A stretch of 32,955 bases of DNA from a virus (taxonomy: Duplodnaviria > Heunggongvirae > Uroviricota > Caudoviricetes). Shown here piece after piece: positions 3,257 through 11,055 of this stretch. Both the position numbers and the translations under genes were made by a program. Position 1 is the first letter of the stretch. Every line of letters begins with the position of its first letter. The notes beneath the pieces are model-generated. The model was not told where the DNA came from, did no database searches, and saw only the letters and a list, made by a program, of their open reading frames with translations. The DNA is taken from the IMG/VR virus record IMGVR_UViG_2617271086_000008, positions 1-32,955 of that record; one strand, 5' to 3'.

Positions 3257-3528
3257 GTATTCGTATTGAAATTGGCGAACGTTATGTCGTTACCAGTGAC
3301 AGCTTTCAGTTTATTCTCCACGAGAAAAAGAGAGCGGAAAGCGGTAAAAACGCCGGTCAGGAATGGCTGGCGGTGGTTGGTTATTATCCGAAATTAAGCC
3401 AGCTCGTTTCCGGCCTGATGCATCACGATATTCTGACCGGAAGCGCAAAGTCTTTTGCTGATTTAAACGCGCAGGTTGAGCAACTCAGCAGGCGTTGTTC
3501 AGAGGCTTTTGGCTCATATGGCCGTTAA
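3253..3528 (+). CDS. Hypothetical early protein
   Basis: 91-aa ORF overlapping upstream (ATGA) and downstream genes. Confidence 0.4.
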   Translation: MSIRIEIGERYVVTSDSFQFILHEKKRAESGKNAGQEWLAVVGYYPKLSQLVSGLMHHDILTGSAKSFADLNAQVEQLSRRCSEAFGSYGR

Positions 3529-5803
3529 AGCCTCCGGGCGTTTTGTCCCTCCTTCAGCATTTGCTGCAGGCACCGGTAAGGCGTTTACCGGTGCTTATGC
3601 ATGGAACGCGCCACGCGAGGCCGTCGGGCGCGAAAGACCCCTTACACGTGACGAGATGCGTCAGGTGCAAGGTGTTTTATCCACGATTAACCGCCTGCCT
3701 TACTTTTTGCGCTCGCTGTTTACTTCACGCTATGACTACATCCGGCGCAATAAAAGCCCGGTACACGGGTTTTATTTCCTCACATCCACTTTTCAGCGTC
3801 GTTTATGGCCGCGCATTGAGCGTGTGAATCAGCGCCATGAAATGAACACCGACGCGTCGTTACTGTTTCTGGCAGAGCGTGACCACTATGCGCGCCTGCC
3901 GGGAATGAATGACAAGGAGCTGAAAAAGTTTGCTGCCCGTATCTCATCGCAGCTTTTCATGATGTATGAGGAACTCAGCGATGCCTGGGTGGATGCGCAT
4001 GGCGAAAAAGAATCGCTGTTTACGGATGAGGCGCAGGTTCACCTCTATGGTCATGTTGCTGGCGCTGCACGTGCTTTCAATATTTCCCCTCTCTACTGGA
4101 AAAAATACCGTAAAGGGCAGATGACCACGAGGCAGGCATATTCTGCCATTGCCCGTCTGTTTAACGATGAGTGGTGGACTCATCAGCTTAAAGGCCAGCG
4201 TATGCGCTGGCATGAGGCGTTACTGATTGCTGTCGGGGAGGTCAATAAAGACCGTTCACCTTATGCCAGTAAACATGCTATTCGTGATGTGCGTACGCGC
4301 CGTCAGGCAAATCTGGAATTTCTTAAATCGTGTGACCTTGAAAACAGGGAAACCGGCGAACGCATCGACCTTATCAGTAAGGTGATGGGCAGTATTTCTA
4401 ATCCTGAAATTCGCCGGATGGAGCTGATGAACACCATTGCCGGTATTGAGCGTTACGCCGCCGCAGAGGGTGATGTGGGGATGTTTATCACGCTGACCGC
4501 GCCGTCAAAGTATCATCCGACACGTCAGGTCGGAAAAGGCGAAAGTAAAACCGTCCAGCTTAATCACGGCTGGAATGATGAGGCATTTAATCCGAAGGAT
4601 GCGCAGCGTTATCTCTGCCGTATCTGGAGCCTGATGCGCACGGCATTCAAGGATAATGATTTACAGGTCTACGGTTTGCGAGTCGTCGAGCCACACCACG
4701 ACGGAACGCCGCACTGGCATATGATGCTTTTTTGTAATCCACGCCAGCGTAACCAGATTATCGAAATCATGCGTCGCTATGCGCTCAAAGAGGATGGCGA
4801 CGAAAGAGGAGCTGCGCGAAACCGTTTTCAGGCAAAACACCTTAACCGGGGCGGTGCTGCGGGATATATCGCGAAATACATTTCAAAAAACATCGACGGC
4901 TATGCACTGGATGGTCAGCTCGATAACGATACCGGCAGGCCGCTGAAAGACACTGCTGCGGCTGTTACCGCATGGGCGTCAACGTGGCGCATCCCGCAAT
5001 TTAAAACGGTTGGCCTGCCGACAATGGGGGCTTACCGTGAACTACGTAAGTTGCCTCGCGGCGTCAGCATTGCTGATGAGTTTGACGAACGCGTCGAGGC
5101 TGCACGCGCTGCCGCAGACAGTGGCGATTTTGCGCTGTATATCAGCGCGCAGGGCGGGGCAAATGTCCCGCGCGATTGTCAGACTGTCAGGGTCGCCCGT
5201 AGCCCGTCGGATGACGTTAACGAGTATGAGGAAGAAGTCGAGAGAGTGGTCGGCATTTACGCGCCGCATCTCGGCGCGCGTCATATTCATATCACCAGAA
5301 CGACGGACTGGCGCATTGTGCCGAAAGTTCCGGTCGTTGAGCCTTTGACTTTAAAAAGCGGCATCGCCGCGCCTCGGAGTCCTGTCAATAACTGTGGAAA
5401 GCTCACCGGTGGTGATACTTCGTTACCGGCTCCCACGCCTTCTGAGCACGCCGCAGCAGTGCTTAATCTGGTTGATGACGGTGTTATCGAATGGAATGAC
5501 CCGGAGGTCGTGAGGGCGCTCAGAGGTGCATTAAAACACGAACTGAGAACACCAAATCGTCAGCAGAGAAACGGAAGCCCGTTAAAACCACATGAAATAG
5601 CGCCATCGGCCAGACTGACCCGGTCGGAACGAATGCAAATCACCCGTATCCGCGTTGACCTTGCTCAGAACGGTATCAGGCCTCAGCGATGGGAGCTTGA
5701 GGCGCTGGCGCGTGGCGCGACAGTAAATTATGACGGAATAAAATTCACGTATCCGGTCGCTGATGAGTGGCCGGGGTTCTCAAAAGTAATGGAGTGGACA
5801 TAA
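3518..5803 (+). CDS. A: Replication initiation endonuclease A (rolling-circle initiator)
   Basis: Long ORF; probable start ATG 3518 (MAVKASGRF, as in P2 gpA by recollection); HxH-type metal motif (GTPHWHMMLF) and YISKN/YIAKY tyrosine region. Confidence 0.9.
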   Translation: MAVKASGRFVPPSAFAAGTGKAFTGAYAWNAPREAVGRERPLTRDEMRQVQGVLSTINRLPYFLRSLFTSRYDYIRRNKSPVHGFYFLTSTFQRRLWPRIERVNQRHEMNTDASLLFLAERDHYARLPGMNDKELKKFAARISSQLFMMYEELSDAWVDAHGEKESLFTDEAQVHLYGHVAGAARAFNISPLYWKKYRKGQMTTRQAYSAIARLFNDEWWTHQLKGQRMRWHEALLIAVGEVNKDRSPYASKHAIRDVRTRRQANLEFLKSCDLENRETGERIDLISKVMGSISNPEIRRMELMNTIAGIERYAAAEGDVGMFITLTAPSKYHPTRQVGKGESKTVQLNHGWNDEAFNPKDAQRYLCRIWSLMRTAFKDNDLQVYGLRVVEPHHDGTPHWHMMLFCNPRQRNQIIEIMRRYALKEDGDERGAARNRFQAKHLNRGGAAGYIAKYISKNIDGYALDGQLDNDTGRPLKDTAAAVTAWASTWRIPQFKTVGLPTMGAYRELRKLPRGVSIADEFDERVEAARAAADSGDFALYISAQGGANVPRDCQTVRVARSPSDDVNEYEEEVERVVGIYAPHLGARHIHITRTTDWRIVPKVPVVEPLTLKSGIAAPRSPVNNCGKLTGGDTSLPAPTPSEHAAAVLNLVDDGVIEWNDPEVVRALRGALKHELRTPNRQQRNGSPLKPHEIAPSARLTRSERMQITRIRVDLAQNGIRPQRWELEALARGATVNYDGIKFTYPVADEWPGFSKVMEWT

Positions 5804-6252
5804 TGGCAAAAATTCACGAGGTAAAGCTGCACGCAAAATATTTTGACCTTGTACTGGAAGGAAAGAAACGAGCAGAGTTTCGTAAAAATGACCGTAATTA
5901 TGAGTGCGGGGACACGTTGATTTTGCATGAATGGGGGCAGGGGGTGTATACGGGGCGAAAGGTTGAAACCCGGATAACGGATGTTACTGACCTGTCAGAC
6001 TGGATGGAAGGTTATGTCTTGCTAAGTATTGAGCTGCTTAATACAGGCGCATATGAGATTGTGAACTGGAAAGAACTTAGTGAGCGTGGTCTGGTATTCA
6101 GAATTAATCATGACATTATGCATCAGCTCGGCCTTGCTGTTATGTATGAACCAGAGACGGGGATGTCTGGCGGGGCAATGGTTGCCACGGATGGAGCATG
6201 GAACTATTCAGATGAACAGATGGAGCATGCAAAGCAAAATGGGTGGTTTTGA
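5803..6252 (+). CDS. ASCH/PUA-like (DUF3850-like) protein with C-terminal extension
   Basis: Start ATG overlaps the A stop (TAATG); N-terminus MAKIHEVKLHAKYFDLVLEGKKRAEFRKNDRNYECGDTLILHEW resembles the DUF3850/ASCH fold signature. Confidence 0.55.
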   Translation: MAKIHEVKLHAKYFDLVLEGKKRAEFRKNDRNYECGDTLILHEWGQGVYTGRKVETRITDVTDLSDWMEGYVLLSIELLNTGAYEIVNWKELSERGLVFRINHDIMHQLGLAVMYEPETGMSGGAMVATDGAWNYSDEQMEHAKQNGWF

Positions 6253-6254
6253 AA

Positions 6255-6491
6255 ATGCACAGAATACCGGGTGAGATACCGCTGCATAACACTAAAAATA
6301 TCAAGCTGATGGCCATTGTTCACCGTCTACAACAGATTATGGTCAATGAGAATCTGACGCCCGATGAGCTAGTCGGGTGCGCTGAAATTGTCAGGGATAA
6401 TTACGGACGGTTCAACGATATCAGTCGACCGAAAGTTAAGACATATCAACCATATAATATGCTTAAACAACCACCACGCAGGCTTGAGTAA
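6255..6491 (+). CDS. Hypothetical small protein
   Basis: ATG 6255 overlaps the upstream stop (TGAAAATG); no recognisable motif. Confidence 0.35.
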   Translation: MHRIPGEIPLHNTKNIKLMAIVHRLQQIMVNENLTPDELVGCAEIVRDNYGRFNDISRPKVKTYQPYNMLKQPPRRLE

Positions 6492-6699
6492 ACGCCGCTA
6501 GTGCTGAAACTTGCTTTCTGGGCTAGCGGTGTTGAACAACGAGCGTAGTGAGGCGTTAGTTATGTAAAGTTAAAGTAATTTAAAACAGTATATTAGTGGA
6601 AAGGATGTTGAGAGTATTCGGTTACGAGAGGGAATGGATGTATTTACAGAAATTGTTGGATTAATTGTAGTAAAGCTAGGATAGGATAGGCCTTAGGGC

Positions 6700-6792
6700 T
6701 GGATGTGGGGAGCCTTCTTGTAGTTTGCTAAAACGCTCGAGATTTTTGAAGGATACAGTTATACTCTGCCGGAGGATGAATCGGAGACTAAA
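6700..6792 (+). promoter_or_regulatory. Putative promoter/RBS region for the methyltransferase gene
   Basis: Possible -35 tcgaga, 17-nt spacer, -10 tatact about 6742-6770; GGAG RBS 6 nt upstream of ATG 6793. Confidence 0.3.
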
Positions 6793-7830
6793 ATGGCGGT
6801 AAAAGTTGTTGATCTTTTTTGTGGTGCTGGCGGGCTTACTCATGGCTTAAAGCAAGCCGGATTAGATGTAGTCGCTGGTATTGATATAGAGAGTGCATGC
6901 CGGGTTGCTTATGAAAGTAATAACAGTGCGCTTTTTATTGAAAAAGATATTTCTCTGGTGACCAAAGACGAGCTTAACGATCTTTTTGAAGGTGCGCAGG
7001 TCAGGGTGTTGGCTGGTTGTGCGCCGTGCCAACCTTTTTCAAGGTATACGCAAGGGCGCGATAAGAAAAATGATAAAAAGTGGCCTCTTCTTTATGAATT
7101 TGAACGTTTAATTCGAGGGGTTAATCCAGAGATCGTTACAATGGAAAATGTGCCTGATGTAACGAAGCATTCTGTTTATAGTGACTTCTATAATAGTTTA
7201 GAGGCATTGGGTTATCATGTCTGGGCCGGAAAGGTTGAATGTGTAGATTATGGTGTTCCGCAAAATAGAGTAAGGCATGTATTATTGGCATCTAAATTTG
7301 CGCCGCTTTCATTTGTAAAACCAAAAGTAGAAAAGGCGGTGACGGTAAAAGAATGCATTGGCGGACTTCCTCCATTAAAGGCAGGTCAAACGGATCCTGT
7401 TGATCCTTTACATAAAGCAAGTAAATTAAGTGATATAAATCTAAAACGTATTGCTTGCTCTAAACCAGGAGGGACATGGCGAGACTGGCCAGTAGAGTTG
7501 ATTGCATCATGCCACATAAAGAAAAGTGGGCAAGGTTATGCTAGTGTATACGGACGTATGGATTGGGATAAACCAAGTCCTACAATTACTACGCTATGTT
7601 ATGGTTTTGGAAATGGCAGATTTGGTCATCCAGAGCAAAATCGTGCAATTTCTCTGAGAGAGGCTGCATTGTTGCAAACGTTTCCAAAGGATTACGTTTT
7701 TACTGCACCCAATGAGAAAGTATCTATAAAGAATGTTGGTAGGATGATTGGTAATGCAGTACCGGTAAAACTAGGTGAGGTTATAGGTGAGTCAATTATA
7801 ACTCACCTAAAAGAGCACAATATAGTTTAA
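6793..7830 (+). CDS. DNA (cytosine-5)-methyltransferase
   Basis: Motif I DLFCGAGG, motif IV GCAPCQPFS (catalytic PCQ), motif VI ENV, motif VIII QNRVR, motif X GNAV; AT-rich relative to the phage backbone. Confidence 0.9.
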   Translation: MAVKVVDLFCGAGGLTHGLKQAGLDVVAGIDIESACRVAYESNNSALFIEKDISLVTKDELNDLFEGAQVRVLAGCAPCQPFSRYTQGRDKKNDKKWPLLYEFERLIRGVNPEIVTMENVPDVTKHSVYSDFYNSLEALGYHVWAGKVECVDYGVPQNRVRHVLLASKFAPLSFVKPKVEKAVTVKECIGGLPPLKAGQTDPVDPLHKASKLSDINLKRIACSKPGGTWRDWPVELIASCHIKKSGQGYASVYGRMDWDKPSPTITTLCYGFGNGRFGHPEQNRAISLREAALLQTFPKDYVFTAPNEKVSIKNVGRMIGNAVPVKLGEVIGESIITHLKEHNIV

Positions 7831-8558
7831 GCCTGTAGTCTTGATGATCGTATGTATAAGCGATCATCAAGGTATTTTTGTATGTTTTCTAGTATTTCTT
7901 CTAGGTAATGGAAAACTTCATTTTTAAGAAGTTCAAGGTTGTCAATAGACGTTTCTTGACCCTTGTTTAAAAAGGATTCTGAACCATGTGCCAATGCATT
8001 TCTTGCTTTTTTTATGTTTACTAAATTTCCACCATTATGAGTTTTTGAACGATCTGTTTGATAGGAAAAACCATAGATATTAGCAACATCCCTAATTTTC
8101 TGTGCGTCAACATTTCCCGAAAATAGGGGGTTTTTATCTGCTTGAACTTGTTTTTTGTGTTCCTCTAGCCATTTTTTTAGAACTAGTTTTGCTATATCAC
8201 CTTGTGAAAAATCCATGTCACTCACCATATGATGGTCTAATTTTTTTAAGGCAAGCTTTGTTAAACTTTCGCAAATCTTATCGACACAAAGATCATCGCA
8301 CGAATTAAGTTCATTATGTATGTCTTCAATAGCATTAGATATAGTGGCTTCAATTAAGTTATATAATATAATAAACGCATTGGCTTTAAGGATATGCGTC
8401 ATTTCGATATCGATTTCGCGGTGTTTACATTCGCCTGCTGTGCGATCTTTGTACGAGAAAGTTGGTCTCTCATCAATAATGAATTTAACAAAATTAAAAT
8501 ATTTTTCTATATCTTCTTTTCTTTCAGAAAATAAAATTTTGCTGTTCATAATGACCAC
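7827..8558 (-). CDS. HEPN-like protein (R-x4-HG motif), putative RNase/abortive-infection effector
   Basis: 243 aa; C-terminal motif KARNALAHG (R186-x4-H191-G); probable GTG start at 8558 with a GAGGAG RBS that overlaps the stop of the upstream DUF262 gene. Confidence 0.6.
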   Translation of the reverse strand: MVIMNSKILFSERKEDIEKYFNFVKFIIDERPTFSYKDRTAGECKHREIDIEMTHILKANAFIILYNLIEATISNAIEDIHNELNSCDDLCVDKICESLTKLALKKLDHHMVSDMDFSQGDIAKLVLKKWLEEHKKQVQADKNPLFSGNVDAQKIRDVANIYGFSYQTDRSKTHNGGNLVNIKKARNALAHGSESFLNKGQETSIDNLELLKNEVFHYLEEILENIQKYLDDRLYIRSSRLQA

Positions 8559-8564
8559 GGATAG

Positions 8565-9689
8565 TTACTCCTCACTATCATCTAGAACAGTATCTTCGGT
8601 CTGCACACCTAAAAGTTTGTCTCTTACATATTCAATACGTGCTTTTACTTTAGGTTTTGAGTTTGACGCATCAGATCTTGTATGTTTAATAAACTCTTCT
8701 GAGTTTAACCATTCCTCTACCGGTGTTGGTATTATGTTAGAGTTAGTTTTTAAGGCTAAAGTGGAACCGACAGCTAACGCTTCAAAGCGAATTCTTGGTA
8801 CAGTGTTTGCTGTTGCATTCTTTCTGAAACCATAGGGGAAATGTGTTTTGACAAATTCACACATATCTTGAAATTGTGCAGTTAGTTTTTCTTCTTGCTC
8901 AGGACTAAATGACTCATTTCGTTGGTCAAGATATTGGGTTAAGAAAGTATCAACACTTTTTTCAAAGTTAAGATAGTTATCACAATAGGCAAAATATCTA
9001 AGAACCAATTCTGGATATTCTCCACGACTGATTCTGGCATCGTTTAGAGGGCATATTTCCCTAAACAATGGAAACTCTGATAGTCTATTAACAACATCAA
9101 GAAAAGGCCCATCATTACTGCCCTGTCGTTGCTCCATTGTCGTGAGTTTTATTCCACCTGTATTCAATCGATCGAAAATCTCCCTTCTTGCTTCTTCATC
9201 ACATAATTCAGTGAGTTCAATCATTCGAATAGTTTTTCTATCGAATCTAAGCTTACGTGCAGGTGTGAAGTCAGAGTATTTGAATCCGTTGGCTGAAGTT
9301 AACTTTTTTAATCCAGTAAGGGTAAATTTATCATTTAGAAAATGATAAAGTGTTCTAATCCTCTGGCTACCATCAACGATTTCCAATCGCCCATCGTCAT
9401 TTCCGATATCGGCAACAAATACATATGGGATAGGAATATTTAGCAAAAGCGATTCAATGAATCTTGATTTTTGAACATTGCTCCAAACAAATTCCCTTTG
9501 ATAATCAGGTATGTATAGTTCTGCTTGGTCGGTTTCTAATCCTTTCTGAAATTTGTCAACAATGACACTTACAGGAAACTCTCTAATTTGGTGATCCGTT
9601 ATTTTTTGCATGGATTTGATCTGGTTATCCAGGTCAACTTTATCTTCTTCTGTGATCACTTGTTCAGGTTGTCTTGGGACTCTTGCCAT
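8565..9689 (-). CDS. DUF262 (ParB/GmrS-like NTPase) domain protein without HNH/DUF1524
   Basis: Motifs DYQREFVW, IVDGSQRIRT (DGQQR-like) and FDRLNTGGIKL; likely start ATG 9689 with an AAGGAG RBS (ORF extends to 9851). Confidence 0.75.
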   Translation of the reverse strand: MARVPRQPEQVITEEDKVDLDNQIKSMQKITDHQIREFPVSVIVDKFQKGLETDQAELYIPDYQREFVWSNVQKSRFIESLLLNIPIPYVFVADIGNDDGRLEIVDGSQRIRTLYHFLNDKFTLTGLKKLTSANGFKYSDFTPARKLRFDRKTIRMIELTELCDEEARREIFDRLNTGGIKLTTMEQRQGSNDGPFLDVVNRLSEFPLFREICPLNDARISRGEYPELVLRYFAYCDNYLNFEKSVDTFLTQYLDQRNESFSPEQEEKLTAQFQDMCEFVKTHFPYGFRKNATANTVPRIRFEALAVGSTLALKTNSNIIPTPVEEWLNSEEFIKHTRSDASNSKPKVKARIEYVRDKLLGVQTEDTVLDDSEE

Positions 9690-9992
9690 TTGTTTTCTCC
9701 TTATGCTTATTTGCAATAAGTTGCATTTGTTTGCATGCGTAGTTTTATACTGATTTAATCCCACAAGTCCTTTATATGCAAGGGTTAGAGGCTTAAATGC
9801 ACCTGCATTAAAACCGCCTTGTGAAGCGGGCAGGCGAGGCGGGGAAAGCACTGCGCGCTGGCGGTGGTGCTGATTTTATTTTTTCAGCGTCTCAGCGCGT
9901 CGTAATGGCGCTTAGTCTGCCCGTTGAGGCGTTGGTGTGTCTGCGGGGTGTTTTGTGCGGTGGTGAGCGTGTGAGGGCGTGATGACGGGGTG

Positions 9993-10016
9993 TAAAAAAG
10001 CCGCCCGCAGGCGGCG
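9993..10016 (-). terminator. Rho-independent terminator downstream of Q (minus strand)
   Basis: GC stem gccgcc/ggcggc (10000-10015) with cgca loop; A6 run on the plus strand gives a U-tract on the minus strand. Confidence 0.55.
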
Positions 10017-10020
10017 ATGT

Positions 10021-11055
10021 TCAACCGTTGTCAGTGTCCAGTGAGTAGTTTTTAAAGCGGATGACCTCCTGACCGAGCCAGCCGTTTATTTCCCGAATTC
10101 TGTCCTGTAACGGGATAAGCTCATTGCGGACAAAGACCTTTGCCACTTTCTCAATATCACCCAGCGACCCGACGTTCTCCGGCTTGCCGCCCATCAACTG
10201 AAAAGGGATGCGGTGCGCGTCCAGCAGGTCTGCGGCGCTGGCTTTTTTGATATTAAAAAAATCGTCCTTCGTTGCCACTTCACTGAGCGGGATAATTTTA
10301 ATGCCGTCGGCTTTCCCTTGCGGGGCATAGAGAAACAGATTTTTAAAGTTGTTGCGGCCTTTCGACTTCACCATGTTTTCGCGGAGCATTTCGATATCGT
10401 TGCGATCCTGCACGGCATCAGTGACGTACATGATGTATCCGGCATGTGCGCCGTTTTCGTAATACTTGCGGCGGAACAGCGTGGCCGACTCATTCAGCCA
10501 GGCAGAGTTAAGGGCGCTGAGATATTCCGGCAGGCCGTACAGCTCCTGATTAATATCCGGCTCCAGCAGGTGAAACACGGAGCCGGGCGCGAAGGCTGTC
10601 GGCTCGTTGAAGGACGGCACCCACCAGTAAACATCCTCTTCCACGCCACGGCGGGTATATTTTGCCGGTGAGGTTTCCAGTCTGATGACCTTACCGGTGG
10701 TGCTGTAACGCTTTTCCAGAAACGCATTACCGAACACCAGAAAATCCAGCACAAAACGGCTGAAATCCTGCTGGGAAAGCCACGGATGCGGAATAAACGT
10801 TGAAGCCAGAATATTGCGTTTAACGTAAATCGGCGAGCTGTGATGCACGGCAGCACGCAGGCTTTTTGCCAGACCGGTAAAGCTGACCGGTGGCTCATAC
10901 CATCTGCCGTTACTGATGCACTCGACGTAATCCAGAATGTCACGGCGGTCGAGAACCGGCACCGGCTCGCCAAAGGTGAATGCCTCCATTTTCGGTGCGC
11001 TGGCGGTCATTTTTTTTGCCGCAGGTTGCGGTGTTTTCCCTTTTTTCTTGCTCAT
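10021..11055 (-). CDS. Q: Portal protein
   Basis: 344 aa, size and position of P2 gpQ; transcribed with P. Confidence 0.9.
   Translation of the reverse strand: MSKKKGKTPQPAAKKMTASAPKMEAFTFGEPVPVLDRRDILDYVECISNGRWYEPPVSFTGLAKSLRAAVHHSSPIYVKRNILASTFIPHPWLSQQDFSRFVLDFLVFGNAFLEKRYSTTGKVIRLETSPAKYTRRGVEEDVYWWVPSFNEPTAFAPGSVFHLLEPDINQELYGLPEYLSALNSAWLNESATLFRRKYYENGAHAGYIMYVTDAVQDRNDIEMLRENMVKSKGRNNFKNLFLYAPQGKADGIKIIPLSEVATKDDFFNIKKASAADLLDAHRIPFQLMGGKPENVGSLGDIEKVAKVFVRNELIPLQDRIREINGWLGQEVIRFKNYSLDTDNG

What the first reader, a model, noticed from the sequence alone, without database searches (positions are those of the whole stretch)
7820..7840. Convergent genes share overlapping stop codons (TTAA) with no intergenic terminator
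The methyltransferase stop TAA (7828-7830) and the minus-strand HEPN stop (complement of 7827-7829) overlap within a single TTAA. Convergent transcripts must therefore read into each other. This suggests transcriptional interference or antisense coupling between the methyltransferase and the DUF262-HEPN operon, and argues they were acquired and are regulated as one unit.
Basis: seen in the sequence. Interest (0 to 1): 0.45.

Follow-up and report, generated by a model that had tools for sequence, protein, structure and literature searches.

The report
Convergent genes sharing one TTAA stop
Two oppositely oriented genes of a phage-carried defence cassette end on the same four bases, which is a common and inherited way of packing genes; each gene's transcript-ending hairpin is hidden inside the other gene, so the arrangement is tidy rather than strange.

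Summary
The C5 DNA methyltransferase gene (6793-7830, +) and the HEPN gene (7827-8549/8558, -) share TTAA at 7827-7830.

This is the best-known class of tail-to-tail overlap (TTAA/CTAA/TTAG/CTAG). In this cassette family it is inherited: 19 of 44 convergent loci have the same 4-nt overlap, from E. coli P2-like prophages to cyanobacteria, and so do 6 of 6 further enterobacterial relatives.

"No terminator" is misleading. Eight bases after the methyltransferase stop, inside the last HEPN codons, lies a 13-bp hairpin with a U-rich tail (7838-7888). A second hairpin (7781-7812) lies just after the HEPN stop, inside the methyltransferase gene.

Both hairpins are conserved across the enterobacterial clade. 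Their wobble pairs work only on the strand of the gene whose stop precedes them (hairpin 1: 11 G·U against 0; hairpin 2: 5 against 0).

So the two mRNAs probably overlap by only about 100 nt, rather than reading through each other.

"Acquired as one unit" is well supported. Obligatory antisense coupling is not: the orthologous methyltransferase also occurs co-directionally upstream, and many DUF262-HEPN pairs have no methyltransferase nearby.

This is an ordinary phenomenon and a neat example. Interest is low to moderate.

The parts
7827..7830 (.). TTAA junction. The + strand stop TAA (7828-7830) and the - strand stop TAA (complement of 7827-7829) share the central TA.
   Evidence: The same 4-nt overlap (TTAA, or CTAA/TTAG) occurs in 19 of 44 convergent family loci and in 6 of 6 further enterobacterial relatives.
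6793..7830 (+). C5 DNA cytosine methyltransferase gene (345 aa).
   Evidence: PF00145 E 1.3e-54. TIGR00675 dcm. Best PADLOC matches are DrmMII and type II MTase models. Nearest solved relatives are M.HaeIII and other C5 MTases. RefSeq WP_000279422.1.
7827..8549 (-). HEPN (MAE_28990 family) gene, 240 aa from the RefSeq ATG (the ORF extends to a GTG at 8558, 243 aa). The Rx4H motif RNALAH is intact.
   Evidence: PF18737 E 8.6e-21 and PF18735 E 4.2e-7. R183, N184 and H188 are invariant, and the C-terminal tail (Y226, Y232) is conserved in alignment A1. No PADLOC model matches.
8565..9689 (-). DUF262 / GmrSD_N (ParB-like NTPase) gene, 374 aa, directly upstream of HEPN in the same operon. It contains a DGSQR motif.
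   Evidence: PF03235 E 1.1e-28. PADLOC NsnA 2.9e-55 and PD-T4-2_A 2.5e-34. RefSeq CDS. Translation. The ORF listed as 8565..9851 runs through the cos site and is over-extended at its 5' end.
7838..7888 (+). Hairpin 1 with a U-rich tail: a probable intrinsic terminator of the methyltransferase transcript. The perfect arms are 7840-7850 and 7861-7871. The stem extends to 7838-7873 with wobble pairs. The tail is ATTTTTGTATGTTTT. It lies inside the last ~15 codons of the HEPN gene.
   Evidence: Terminator scan. Fold dG -18.3, z -4.5. z -3.4 against in-gene controls. No mismatches to L034 at 87.4% overall DNA identity, where only 0.86% of 32-nt windows are mismatch-free. Kept in 7 of 8 enterobacterial lineages: MT-sense 63 Watson-Crick / 11 G·U / 3 mismatches, HEPN-sense 63 / 0 / 14, with one fully compensatory pair.
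7781..7812 (-). Hairpin 2: a 10-11 bp stem-loop 15 nt after the HEPN stop on the - strand, inside the last ~16 codons of the methyltransferase gene. It has no U tract, so it is a probable 3'-end or stabilising hairpin of the DUF262-HEPN transcript rather than a canonical terminator.
   Evidence: z -4.4; z -2.5. In five window-type lineages: HEPN-sense 44 Watson-Crick / 5 G·U / 1 mismatch, MT-sense 44 / 0 / 6. L136-L138 form an equivalent stem with the other GGTGAG copy.
6737..6765 (+). Promoter-like site (TCGAGA-17-TATACT) upstream of the methyltransferase gene. This is weak evidence only.
   Evidence: One search found 9 promoter-like sites against 10.4 expected in shuffles, so the scan is not discriminating. 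Sequence.
9833..9851 (+). Context: P2-type cos sequence GGCGAGGCGGGGAAAGCAC. It places the cassette in the cargo hotspot between the replication endonuclease gene (3476-5803) and cos plus the portal gene (10021-11055, -).
   Evidence: Sequence read. Identification of the 19-mer as P2 cos is from memory. Flanking gene identities come from RefSeq. The hotspot is described in PMC9519451 and PMC9122126.

Best explanation
The TTAA is a 4-nt tail-to-tail overlap of the stop codons of two genes in one compact, horizontally mobile defence cassette: a DUF262-HEPN operon plus a convergent C5 DNA methyltransferase. The cassette sits in the cargo hotspot of a P2-like prophage next to cos.

The overlap is an inherited, mutationally 'frozen' junction. 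Changes at the two central bases destroy both stops at once. Only the outer-base transitions (TTAA <-> CTAA/TTAG) are tolerated. Stop-shift mutations produce the longer overlaps (-8 to -32) seen in some relatives.

Because no intergenic DNA is left, the 3'-end signals sit inside the partner's coding sequence in this enterobacterial lineage.
- Hairpin 1 (7838-7873 plus U-rich tail) most likely terminates the methyltransferase transcript, and any read-through from the co-directional P2 early genes, about 45-58 nt past its stop.
- Hairpin 2 (7781-7812) most likely marks or stabilises the 3' end of the DUF262-HEPN transcript about 50 nt past its stop. Rho may contribute, because the RNA is untranslated beyond the stop.

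The net result would be insulation. The two mRNAs would share only about 100 nt of complementary 3' end (about 7775-7885), rather than reading through each other.

Shown here: the overlap, its conservation, the hairpins, their nucleotide-level conservation and their strand-specific pairing. Inferred: that the hairpins actually terminate or stabilise transcripts, and where the 3' ends lie.
For: Anatomy.

Family survey: 44 convergent loci with gaps of -32 to +414, of which 19 are -4. The -4 state occurs in several clades, with other states nested among them. All six further enterobacterial HEPN clusters at 66-85% identity are -4.

Hairpin 1:
- It has no substitutions between L001 and L034, where a 32-nt window carries 4.07 on average.
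- It is retained in 7 of 8 lineages despite the amino-acid replacements D-D-R -> D-G-Q and S-S -> P-P in the HEPN tail.
- It has 11 G·U cells in MT-sense against 0 in HEPN-sense, one A-U<->G-C compensatory pair, and slid controls of 48% paired or less against 80.8%.
- The U-rich tail is retained.

Hairpin 2 shows the opposite asymmetry, 5 G·U in HEPN-sense against 0.

Relatives with a gap carry a bidirectional terminator in it (L119, L130, L041), which suggests that termination between the genes is selected.

General precedent: the four tetramers CTAA/TTAA/CTAG/TTAG give a peak of convergent overlaps. In E. coli, 19 of 58 convergent overlaps have one terminator embedded in a coding sequence and 2 have both (PMC2174442).
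Against: - No transcript data: termination at either hairpin is inferred.
- Hairpin 2 lacks a U tract, so it fails the intrinsic-terminator consensus.
- Hairpin 1 has only 5 G-C pairs. Its left arm starts 8-10 nt after the stop, so a terminating ribosome could interfere with folding.
- Outside the enterobacterial window-type clade, the overlapping loci show no unusual hairpins (median z about 0). This includes the sister E. coli lineage with a 22-nt overlap (L002). Embedded hairpins are therefore not needed for the cassette to exist.
- The shuffle control of the count of structure pairs is not significant with 8 sequences.
- The wobble asymmetry rests on few independent substitutions (about 3-4 per hairpin).
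- L136 lacks hairpin 1.
Confidence: 0.6

Rival explanations
1. First reader's model. With no effective termination, the convergent transcripts read deep into each other. RNA polymerase collision and long antisense RNA then couple methyltransferase and DUF262-HEPN expression, for example by delaying the toxic operon until methylation is established.
For: - The convergent orientation with near-zero spacing is conserved in 44 or more loci.
- Most family members with overlaps show no hairpin near the junction.
- Hairpin 2 is not a canonical terminator.
- Antisense and convergent-promoter control is documented for restriction-modification systems such as EcoRI and Eco29kI, and for type I toxin-antitoxin pairs with 3' overlaps (PMC3874152; PMC3141266, listed).
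Against: - In this lineage both hairpins are conserved, with strand-appropriate wobble pairs.
- Relatives with a gap place a bidirectional terminator in it.
- The orthologous methyltransferase (50-56% identity over full-length matches) also works from an upstream co-directional position, overlapping DUF262 by 8-14 nt.
- The DUF262-HEPN pair exists without any nearby methyltransferase in 37 loci. PD-T4-2 defends without one.
The convergent geometry is therefore not required for the partnership.
Confidence: 0.15
2. Purely neutral packing. The overlap is a frozen accident, and the two hairpins are by-products of the coding sequences (the repeated GGTGAG/CTCACC and GAT/ATC codons) with no role in RNA.
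For: - 4-nt convergent overlaps arise easily from stop-codon complementarity (PMC2174442).
- Both hairpins lie in coding sequence.
- Most of the wider family lacks them.
- The covariation shuffles are not significant.
Against: - Hairpin 1 is a mismatch-free 32-mer at 87% overall identity (0.86% of windows).
- Amino acids in the HEPN tail change while pairing is kept.
- All 11 half-changes in hairpin 1 give G·U on the MT-sense strand, and all 5 in hairpin 2 give G·U on the HEPN-sense strand.
- A U-rich tail follows hairpin 1.
Confidence: 0.2
3. The palindromes act as DNA, for example as a protein-binding site, a Dam/SeqA site (each arm of hairpin 1 carries GATC) or a recombination junction between the methyltransferase module and the DUF262-HEPN module.
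For: - Hairpin 1 is a perfect 11-bp inverted repeat with two GATC sites.
- The junction separates two modules that also occur in other arrangements.
Against: - The GATC sites are lost in L131, L133, L135, L137 and L138, yet RNA pairing is kept through G·U. G·U pairs are mismatches in a DNA cruciform and break a DNA palindrome.
- The motif occurs only once in the window.
- No conserved nucleotides flank TTAA across the family.
Confidence: 0.03
4. Annotation artefact. One of the two ORFs really ends earlier, so there is no true overlap.
For: The last few residues of both proteins vary across the family.
Against: - A stop codon defines the end of an ORF regardless of annotation.
- The Pfam models run to residue 235 of 243 (HEPN) and 336 of 345 (methyltransferase).
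- The HEPN tail has invariant tyrosines.
- Tail lengths are conserved across loci.
- RefSeq and independent gene callers give the same ends.
Confidence: 0.02

Closest known systems
Four-nucleotide convergent (tail-to-tail) stop-codon overlaps: CTAA/TTAA/CTAG/TTAG (Lillo & Krakauer 2007, PMC2174442)
   Same: The geometry is exactly the same: two stops on opposite strands share the central TA. The paper also describes rho-independent terminators lying inside the partner's coding sequence (in E. coli, 19 of 58 convergent overlaps have one and 2 have both).
   Different: Here the junction can be traced as a conserved character of one mobile cassette across phyla. Both embedded hairpins show strand-specific wobble evidence. 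The paper is a genome-wide statistic, not a study of this locus.
MAE_28990 HEPN - ParB/DUF262 - DNA methylase operons (Anantharaman et al. 2013, PMC3710099, Table 1)
   Same: The same three protein families are present. The HEPN matches PF18737 with an intact Rx4H motif, the partner is DUF262, and a DNA methylase is adjacent.
   Different: The paper gives only the association and a PrrC-like hypothesis. It does not describe gene orientation, the stop overlap or the hairpins. No experimental work on this family was found in the library.
PD-T4-2 (Vassallo et al. 2022, PMC9519451): a DUF262 + HEPN two-gene anti-T4 system from E. coli ECOR65
   Same: It is a DUF262 protein followed by a HEPN protein. 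The window's DUF262 protein matches the PD-T4-2_A model (E 2.5e-34). In that study, four of the new systems sit in this same P2 hotspot; PD-T4-2's own location was not checked here.
   Different: The window's HEPN does not match the PD-T4-2_B model. The two PD-T4-2 ORFs span only 1.54 kb and have no methyltransferase. The window cassette has a 240-aa HEPN and a convergent C5 methyltransferase.
Convergent or antisense regulation in restriction-modification and type I toxin-antitoxin systems (EcoRI reverse promoters, fst RNAI/RNAII, bsrG/SR4; PMC3874152, PMC3141266)
   Same: A potentially toxic nuclease gene and a protective gene face each other, and the transcripts are complementary at their 3' ends. 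fst RNAI/RNAII overlap across a bidirectional terminator by 35 nt, and bsrG/SR4 by 123 nt. These lengths are similar to the ~100 nt predicted here.
   Different: In those systems an antisense effect has been demonstrated. Here nothing has been measured, both partners are full-length protein-coding mRNAs, and the geometry is not obligatory in the family (class B1).
P2 cargo hotspot between the replication endonuclease gene and cos/portal (old, tin; Rousset et al. 2022, PMC9122126; Vassallo et al. 2022)
   Same: The position is the same, between gpA and the portal gene next to cos, and the content is a defence-type cargo.
   Different: This particular cargo (C5 methyltransferase + HEPN + DUF262) was not found in the text searches of those papers. 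It is rare, occurring in 7 of 5426 complete E. coli genomes.

Membership tests
4-nt convergent stop-codon overlap class | Two ORFs on opposite strands whose stop codons share the central two bases of TTAA, CTAA, TTAG or CTAG. | tested here: met
   TTAA at 7827-7830, with both stops read directly.
Rho-independent (intrinsic) terminator: hairpin 1, + strand | A stable stem-loop immediately followed by a U-rich tract, located just downstream of a stop codon. | tested here: met
   13-14 pairs, 8-nt loop and tail ATTTTTGTAT. dG -18.3, z -4.5. The stem starts 8 nt after the TAA. There are only 5 G-C pairs, so the stem is moderately G+C-poor.
Rho-independent (intrinsic) terminator: hairpin 1, + strand | Conservation of pairing on the transcribed strand. 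| tested here: met
   MT-sense 63 Watson-Crick / 11 G·U / 3 mismatches, against HEPN-sense 63 / 0 / 14. One compensatory pair. Mismatch-free against L034. Support is limited by few independent changes.
Rho-independent (intrinsic) terminator: hairpin 1, + strand | Actual transcript 3' ends at the U tract. | not testable with these tools
   No transcriptome or 3'-end data are available.
Rho-independent (intrinsic) terminator: hairpin 2, - strand | A U-rich tract directly after the stem. | tested here: not met
   The tail is UAUAACCUCACCUAG, and the terminator scan did not flag it. The stem itself is conserved on the HEPN-sense strand.
Classical type II restriction-modification system | A methyltransferase paired with a restriction endonuclease of a recognised REase fold. 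| tested here: not met
   The partners are DUF262/GmrSD_N and HEPN. Only a weak partial REase_II model hit was found (E 3.4e-8 over residues 114-256).
Classical type II restriction-modification system | The methyltransferase is indispensable whenever the nuclease is present. | tested here: inconclusive
   37 loci have DUF262-HEPN and no nearby C5 methyltransferase. Two records have a frameshifted methyltransferase with intact partners. However, a methyltransferase elsewhere in those genomes, or sequencing error, cannot be excluded.
PD-T4-2 | A DUF262 protein that matches PD-T4-2_A. | tested here: met
   E 2.5e-34, residues 115-408 on model positions 56-356 of 363.
PD-T4-2 | A HEPN partner that matches PD-T4-2_B. 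| tested here: not met
   No PADLOC hit at E <= 0.01. At E <= 10 only an unrelated weak hit was found. The Pfam PF18735 match is secondary to PF18737.
Menshen (NsnABC) | NsnA (DUF262) together with the NsnB ATPase and NsnC effector. | tested here: not met
   The NsnA model matches (E 2.9e-55), but the neighbours are HEPN and a methyltransferase. No ATPase gene is present in the cassette.
GmrSD / BrxU / SspE type IV-like enzymes | A DUF262 N-terminal domain fused to a DUF1524 HNH nuclease domain. | tested here: not met
   Only PF03235 (GmrSD_N) is found and there is no DUF1524. Matches to SspE, HEC-05 and HEC-06 are weak and restricted to the N-terminus.
MAE_28990 HEPN - ParB - methylase association (Anantharaman 2013) | A PF18737-type HEPN with Rx4H, next to a ParB/DUF262 gene and a DNA methylase gene. 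| tested here: met
P2 hotspot cargo | Located between the replication endonuclease (gpA) gene and the portal gene, next to cos, in a P2-like prophage. | tested here: met
   RefSeq neighbours, cos 19-mer at 9833-9851, the same context in L131-L138, and the description of the hotspot.

The most novel reading that the evidence does not exclude
The ~100-nt complementary 3' ends of the two mRNAs (about 7775-7885) contain each other's terminator hairpins in antisense. They could form a built-in RNA-RNA sensor, analogous to type I toxin-antitoxin 3' overlaps such as bsrG/SR4. Duplex formation and RNase III cleavage, or translation-dependent masking of hairpin 1 (its left arm starts only 8-10 nt after the methyltransferase stop), would tie the level of the DUF262-HEPN nuclease operon to methyltransferase expression. 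The conserved stop-on-stop junction would then exist to keep this coupling.
Probability: 0.1. Interest if true: 0.55.

Novelty: new member of a known kind. Interest (0 to 1): 0.3.

Why it matters
As a phenomenon it is ordinary. Four-base tail-to-tail overlaps, and terminators buried in the partner's coding sequence, have been known from genome statistics since 2007.

The value here is as a clean, traceable example. One mobile defence cassette has kept the same stop-on-stop junction from cyanobacteria to enterobacterial P2 prophages. In one clade, two strand-specific RNA hairpins have been written into the last codons of both proteins, to the point of changing amino acids to keep the stems.

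Three practical consequences follow.
- Anyone cloning or engineering this cassette, for example by deleting the methyltransferase or HEPN gene, will unavoidably damage the other gene's 3'-end signal.
- Expression models of this candidate defence system (methyltransferase + DUF262 + HEPN, still uncharacterised and absent from PADLOC v2) should assume insulation rather than wholesale antisense read-through.
- The comparative data show that the methyltransferase is a facultative, orientation-independent partner of the DUF262-HEPN pair. This constrains ideas about how the system tells self from non-self.

Tried and rejected
- **Rfam scan.** A scan of 6000-10500 at E <= 1 found nothing, so there is no known RNA family at the junction.
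- **Promoter scan.** It is not discriminating: 9 sites against 10.4 expected. No claim is made about promoter strength.
- **TATAAT in the loop of hairpin 2 as an antisense promoter.** Rejected. It is not conserved (TCATGA in L131/L133), and the -35 spacing is wrong.
- **GATC (Dam) sites in hairpin 1 as the selected feature.** Rejected. They are lost in the 83-85% relatives while pairing is kept.
- **Family-wide search for junction hairpins.** Negative outside the window-type clade (median z about 0). The hairpins are lineage-specific, not a family trait.
- **PADLOC and NCBIfam for the HEPN and DUF262 proteins.** There is no HEPN model.
- **PDB sequence search for HEPN and DUF262.** No meaningful relatives were found. 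Structure prediction was not run, because it would not bear on the junction.
- **Shuffle control in the count of structure pairs.** Not significant with 8 related sequences. I rely instead on the slid controls, the strand asymmetry and the mismatch-free window.
- **Frameshifted methyltransferase in L003 as proof that the methyltransferase is dispensable.** Only suggestive, because the change is a one-base length change in a poly-G run and could be a sequencing error.
- **First literature query.** It failed on a two-letter term.
Full report
**1. The observation**

Window bases 7827-7830 read TTAA. The + strand ORF 6793..7830 (345 aa) ends with TAA at 7828-7830. The - strand ORF 7827..8558 ends with the complement of 7827-7829, also TAA.

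RefSeq annotates the same ends in the 100%-identical chromosome NZ_CP147056. Locus coordinates 4294-5331 (+) and 5328-6050 (-) give a 4-nt overlap. The description is therefore accurate.

**2. What the genes are and where they sit**

- The + gene is a C5 DNA cytosine methyltransferase (PF00145, E 1.3e-54; TIGR00675).
- The - gene is a HEPN protein of the MAE_28990 family (PF18737, E 8.6e-21). Its R-N-x3-H motif is invariant (alignment A1).
- Directly upstream on the - strand is a DUF262/GmrSD_N protein (PF03235; PADLOC NsnA 2.9e-55 and PD-T4-2_A 2.5e-34).
- The HEPN protein matches no PADLOC v2 model.

The window is a P2-like prophage. The cassette lies between the replication endonuclease gene with two small genes (3476-6491) and the portal gene (10021-11055, -). 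The 19-mer GGCGAGGCGGGGAAAGCAC is at 9833-9851; I identify it as P2 cos from memory. This position is the known P2 cargo hotspot that holds old and tin in P2 itself (PMC9519451; PMC9122126).

The association of MAE_28990 HEPN with a ParB nuclease and a DNA methylase was tabulated in 2013 (PMC3710099). That is the only paper in the library that names this family. The cassette is rare, occurring in 7 of 5426 complete E. coli genomes.

**3. Is the overlap more than chance?**

As a single case, no. [quoted passage not shown] In the 58 genomes of that study, 1890 convergent overlaps were counted, of which 1218 are 5 nt or longer (PMC2174442).

As a character of this family, yes. I collected 126 related loci and classified them with profile searches.

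| Class | Arrangement | Loci |
|---|---|---|
| A | DUF262 -> HEPN -> <- methyltransferase (convergent) | 44 |
| B | methyltransferase -> DUF262 -> HEPN (co-directional) | 13 |
| C | full flanks, no C5 methyltransferase nearby | 37 |
| Undetermined | contig too short to tell | 30 |
| No HEPN ORF called | - | 2 |

In class A, the gap between the two ORFs takes these values:

| Gap (nt) | -32 | -27 | -25 | -22 | -17 | -15 | -11 | -8 | -4 | +4 | +7 | +9 | +16 | +21 | +125 | +414 |
|---|---|---|---|---|---|---|---|---|---|---|---|---|---|---|---|---|
| Loci | 2 | 1 | 1 | 5 | 1 | 1 | 1 | 2 | 19 | 3 | 1 | 2 | 2 | 1 | 1 | 1 |

The -4 state occurs in E. coli prophages, in Hormoscilla cyanobacteria (L006, L009) and in many metagenome contigs. 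The terminal residues of both proteins differ widely among these loci. Pairwise identity among -4 loci falls to 33% for HEPN and 54% for the methyltransferase. On neighbour-joining trees the -4 state appears in several clades, with other states nested among them, and the two protein trees share their major clades.

A protein search found six further enterobacterial clusters at 66-85% identity, including one named from Citrobacter amalonaticus and one from Klebsiella aerogenes. All six have the 4-nt overlap, as TTAA or as TTAG/CTAA.

A simple reading explains the pattern. Mutations at the two central bases remove both stops at once, and outer-base transitions keep both. Stop-shift events then give the longer overlaps. 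This is the stop-mutation origin favoured for convergent overlaps in general.

**4. The "no terminator" claim**

There is no intergenic DNA, but two hairpins flank the TTAA.

Hairpin 1 has perfect arms at 7840-7850 and 7861-7871 and extends to 7838-7873. It begins 8 nt after the methyltransferase stop and is followed by ATTTTTGTATGTTTT on the + strand. As RNA it folds at -18.3 kcal/mol (z -4.5, 0 of 200 shuffles as stable). It lies in the codons for the HEPN tail LDDRLYIRSSR.

Hairpin 2 (7781-7812) begins 15 nt after the HEPN stop on the - strand, inside the last ~16 methyltransferase codons (z -4.4). It has no U tract.

Measured against 60-nt control windows from the same genes, only the window lineage stands out (z -3.4 and -2.5). 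The family median is about 0.

**5. Are the hairpins selected?**

L034 is 87.4% identical to the window over the two genes. It has no substitution in the 32 nt of hairpin 1. Only 0.86% of 32-nt windows are mismatch-free, and the mean is 4.07 mismatches.

In the 66-85% relatives the arms change and pairing is kept. The HEPN tail changes from D-D-R...S-S to D-G-Q...P-P, so amino acids are replaced while the stem survives.

Counts of pair types:

| Hairpin | Sample | Strand | Watson-Crick | G·U | Mismatch |
|---|---|---|---|---|---|
| 1 | 7 lineages x 11 core pairs | methyltransferase sense | 63 | 11 | 3 |
| 1 | same | HEPN sense | 63 | 0 | 14 |
| 2 | 5 window-type lineages x 10 pairs | HEPN sense | 44 | 5 | 1 |
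| 2 | same | methyltransferase sense | 44 | 0 | 6 |

The tool counts, which include the outlier L136, give 80.8% paired in methyltransferase sense and 71.2% in HEPN sense. Slid controls reach 48% at most, and one pair is fully compensatory (A-U/G-C). L136-L138 build an equivalent hairpin 2 from the other GGTGAG copy.

Each hairpin is therefore valid RNA on the strand of the gene whose stop codon precedes it. This is the signature expected of 3'-end structures. It is not expected of DNA palindromes or of coding by-products.

Caveats: the number of independent substitutions is small (about 3-4 per hairpin), the shuffle control is not significant, and L136 lacks hairpin 1.

Relatives that do have a gap place a textbook bidirectional terminator in it. 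These are L119 (+21, TAAGCCTGCAATGCAGGCTTTTTTTTAG), the Klebsiella linear plasmid L130 (+35) and L041 (+125). This suggests that termination between the two genes is generally favoured.

**6. Most likely mechanism**

The junction is an inherited, mutationally stabilised packing of a mobile three-gene cassette.

In this lineage hairpin 1 most probably acts as an intrinsic terminator for the methyltransferase transcript. It would also stop read-through from the co-directional phage early genes, protecting the antisense of HEPN, DUF262, cos and the late genes.

Hairpin 2 most probably marks or protects the 3' end of the DUF262-HEPN mRNA. Beyond the stop that RNA is untranslated, so Rho could also act; this is inference from general knowledge of antisense suppression in E. 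coli.

If so, the two mRNAs overlap by roughly 100 nt (about 7775-7885). This is what Lillo and Krakauer reported for E. coli in general: 19 of 58 convergent overlaps have one embedded rho-independent terminator and 2 have both.

**7.

"One unit" is supported (sections 3 and 5). "Must read into each other" is only true for the ~100-nt terminal zone, if the hairpins work.

"Antisense coupling" as the reason for the arrangement is weakened by three observations.
- Orthologous methyltransferases (50-56% identical to the window's over full-length matches) occur upstream and co-directional, overlapping the DUF262 gene by 8-14 nt (class B1: L084, L091, L097, L104 and others).
- A second, unrelated C5 methyltransferase lineage (~29% identity) has been recruited in the same upstream position (L016, L050, L112, L124).
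- 37 loci have the DUF262-HEPN pair among housekeeping genes, with no DNA methyltransferase nearby. The experimentally validated PD-T4-2 (DUF262 + HEPN) defends without one.

**8. Comparison with known systems**

The junction belongs to the known class of 4-nt convergent overlaps. Hairpin 1 meets the sequence definition of an intrinsic terminator and hairpin 2 does not.

The cassette is not a classical type II restriction-modification system, because it has no REase-fold partner. It is not Menshen (no NsnB or NsnC), not GmrSD (no DUF1524), and not a strict PD-T4-2 member (the HEPN partner does not match). It does fit the MAE_28990-ParB-methylase association of 2013.

It works like a compact convergent restriction-modification-type module. 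The 2013 paper's hypothesis is PrrC-like: the HEPN RNase is held in check by the DNA-targeting and modifying partners. Nothing here tests that.

**9. Verdict**

- The phenomenon is ordinary, but this is a well-resolved example.
- The novelty lies in the comparative picture (a junction conserved across phyla, and two strand-specific hairpins written into both coding sequences), not in the kind of thing it is.

Noticed in passing
L002 3728-3750; L003 3731; L129 (phage P24B2, NC_049387) 2164-2190: The sister E. coli lineage of the methyltransferase (76% DNA identity, 22-nt overlap with HEPN) carries a poly-G run. It is G7 when in frame (L002, L035, L115, L116), G6 in NZ_CP027550 (annotated as a frameshifted pseudogene) and G8 in Peduovirus P24B2 (CDS split in two). 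DUF262 and HEPN stay intact in all of them. This could be slipped-strand phase variation of the methyltransferase or homopolymer sequencing error. The window's own gene has the run interrupted (CCAGGAGGGAC).
   Followed up: partly
L084, L091, L097, L098, L104, L107, L110 (class B1); L016, L050, L112, L124 (class B2): The DUF262-HEPN pair also occurs with the methyltransferase upstream and co-directional. In B1 it is the orthologous enzyme (50-56% identity), overlapping DUF262 by 8-14 nt in several loci. In B2 it is an unrelated C5 methyltransferase (~29% identity). The methyltransferase partnership has therefore been rearranged or re-acquired more than once.
   Followed up: partly
L007, L010-L014, L017-L020, L022-L025, L027-L030, L033 and others (Microcoleus and relatives): Many cyanobacterial loci have a short 177-aa DUF262 ORF (N-terminal domain only) followed by a full HEPN gene. 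No DNA methyltransferase lies within 2.5 kb. The neighbours are a conserved 220-aa protein with no Pfam hit and a BrkB-family membrane protein.
   Followed up: partly
L130 4163-4199 (Klebsiella pneumoniae linear 32-kb plasmid NZ_CP069825): A distant copy of the trio (HEPN 31% identical) sits on a linear, phage-like plasmid. It has a 35-nt gap that holds a neat bidirectional terminator (AAAATAGGCCTGACCAAAAGGCCTATTTGATTTT).
   Followed up: partly
window 9833-9851 and ORF 8565..9851 (-): The mechanical ORF for the DUF262 gene starts at a GTG at 9851 and runs through the cos 19-mer. The real start is the ATG at 9689, which is preceded by AAGGAG (RefSeq agrees). The 54-aa N-terminal extension is an artefact.
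   Followed up: yes
window 10000-10015 (-): A strong G+C-rich terminator (GCCGCCTGCGGGCGGC followed by TTTTTT) lies directly after the portal gene stop, between the late operon and cos.
   Followed up: no
window 5767-6252 (+): A DUF3850/ASCH + DUF7415 protein is encoded between the replication endonuclease gene and the cargo. Its ORF overlaps the end of the gpA ORF.
   Followed up: no
window 7772-7812: The methyltransferase C-terminus encodes L-G-E-V-I-G-E, giving two direct copies of TAGGTGAG. Either copy can pair with CTCACCTA (7802-7809). Relatives use one or the other copy for hairpin 2, so alternative pairings are possible in the window sequence.
   Followed up: partly
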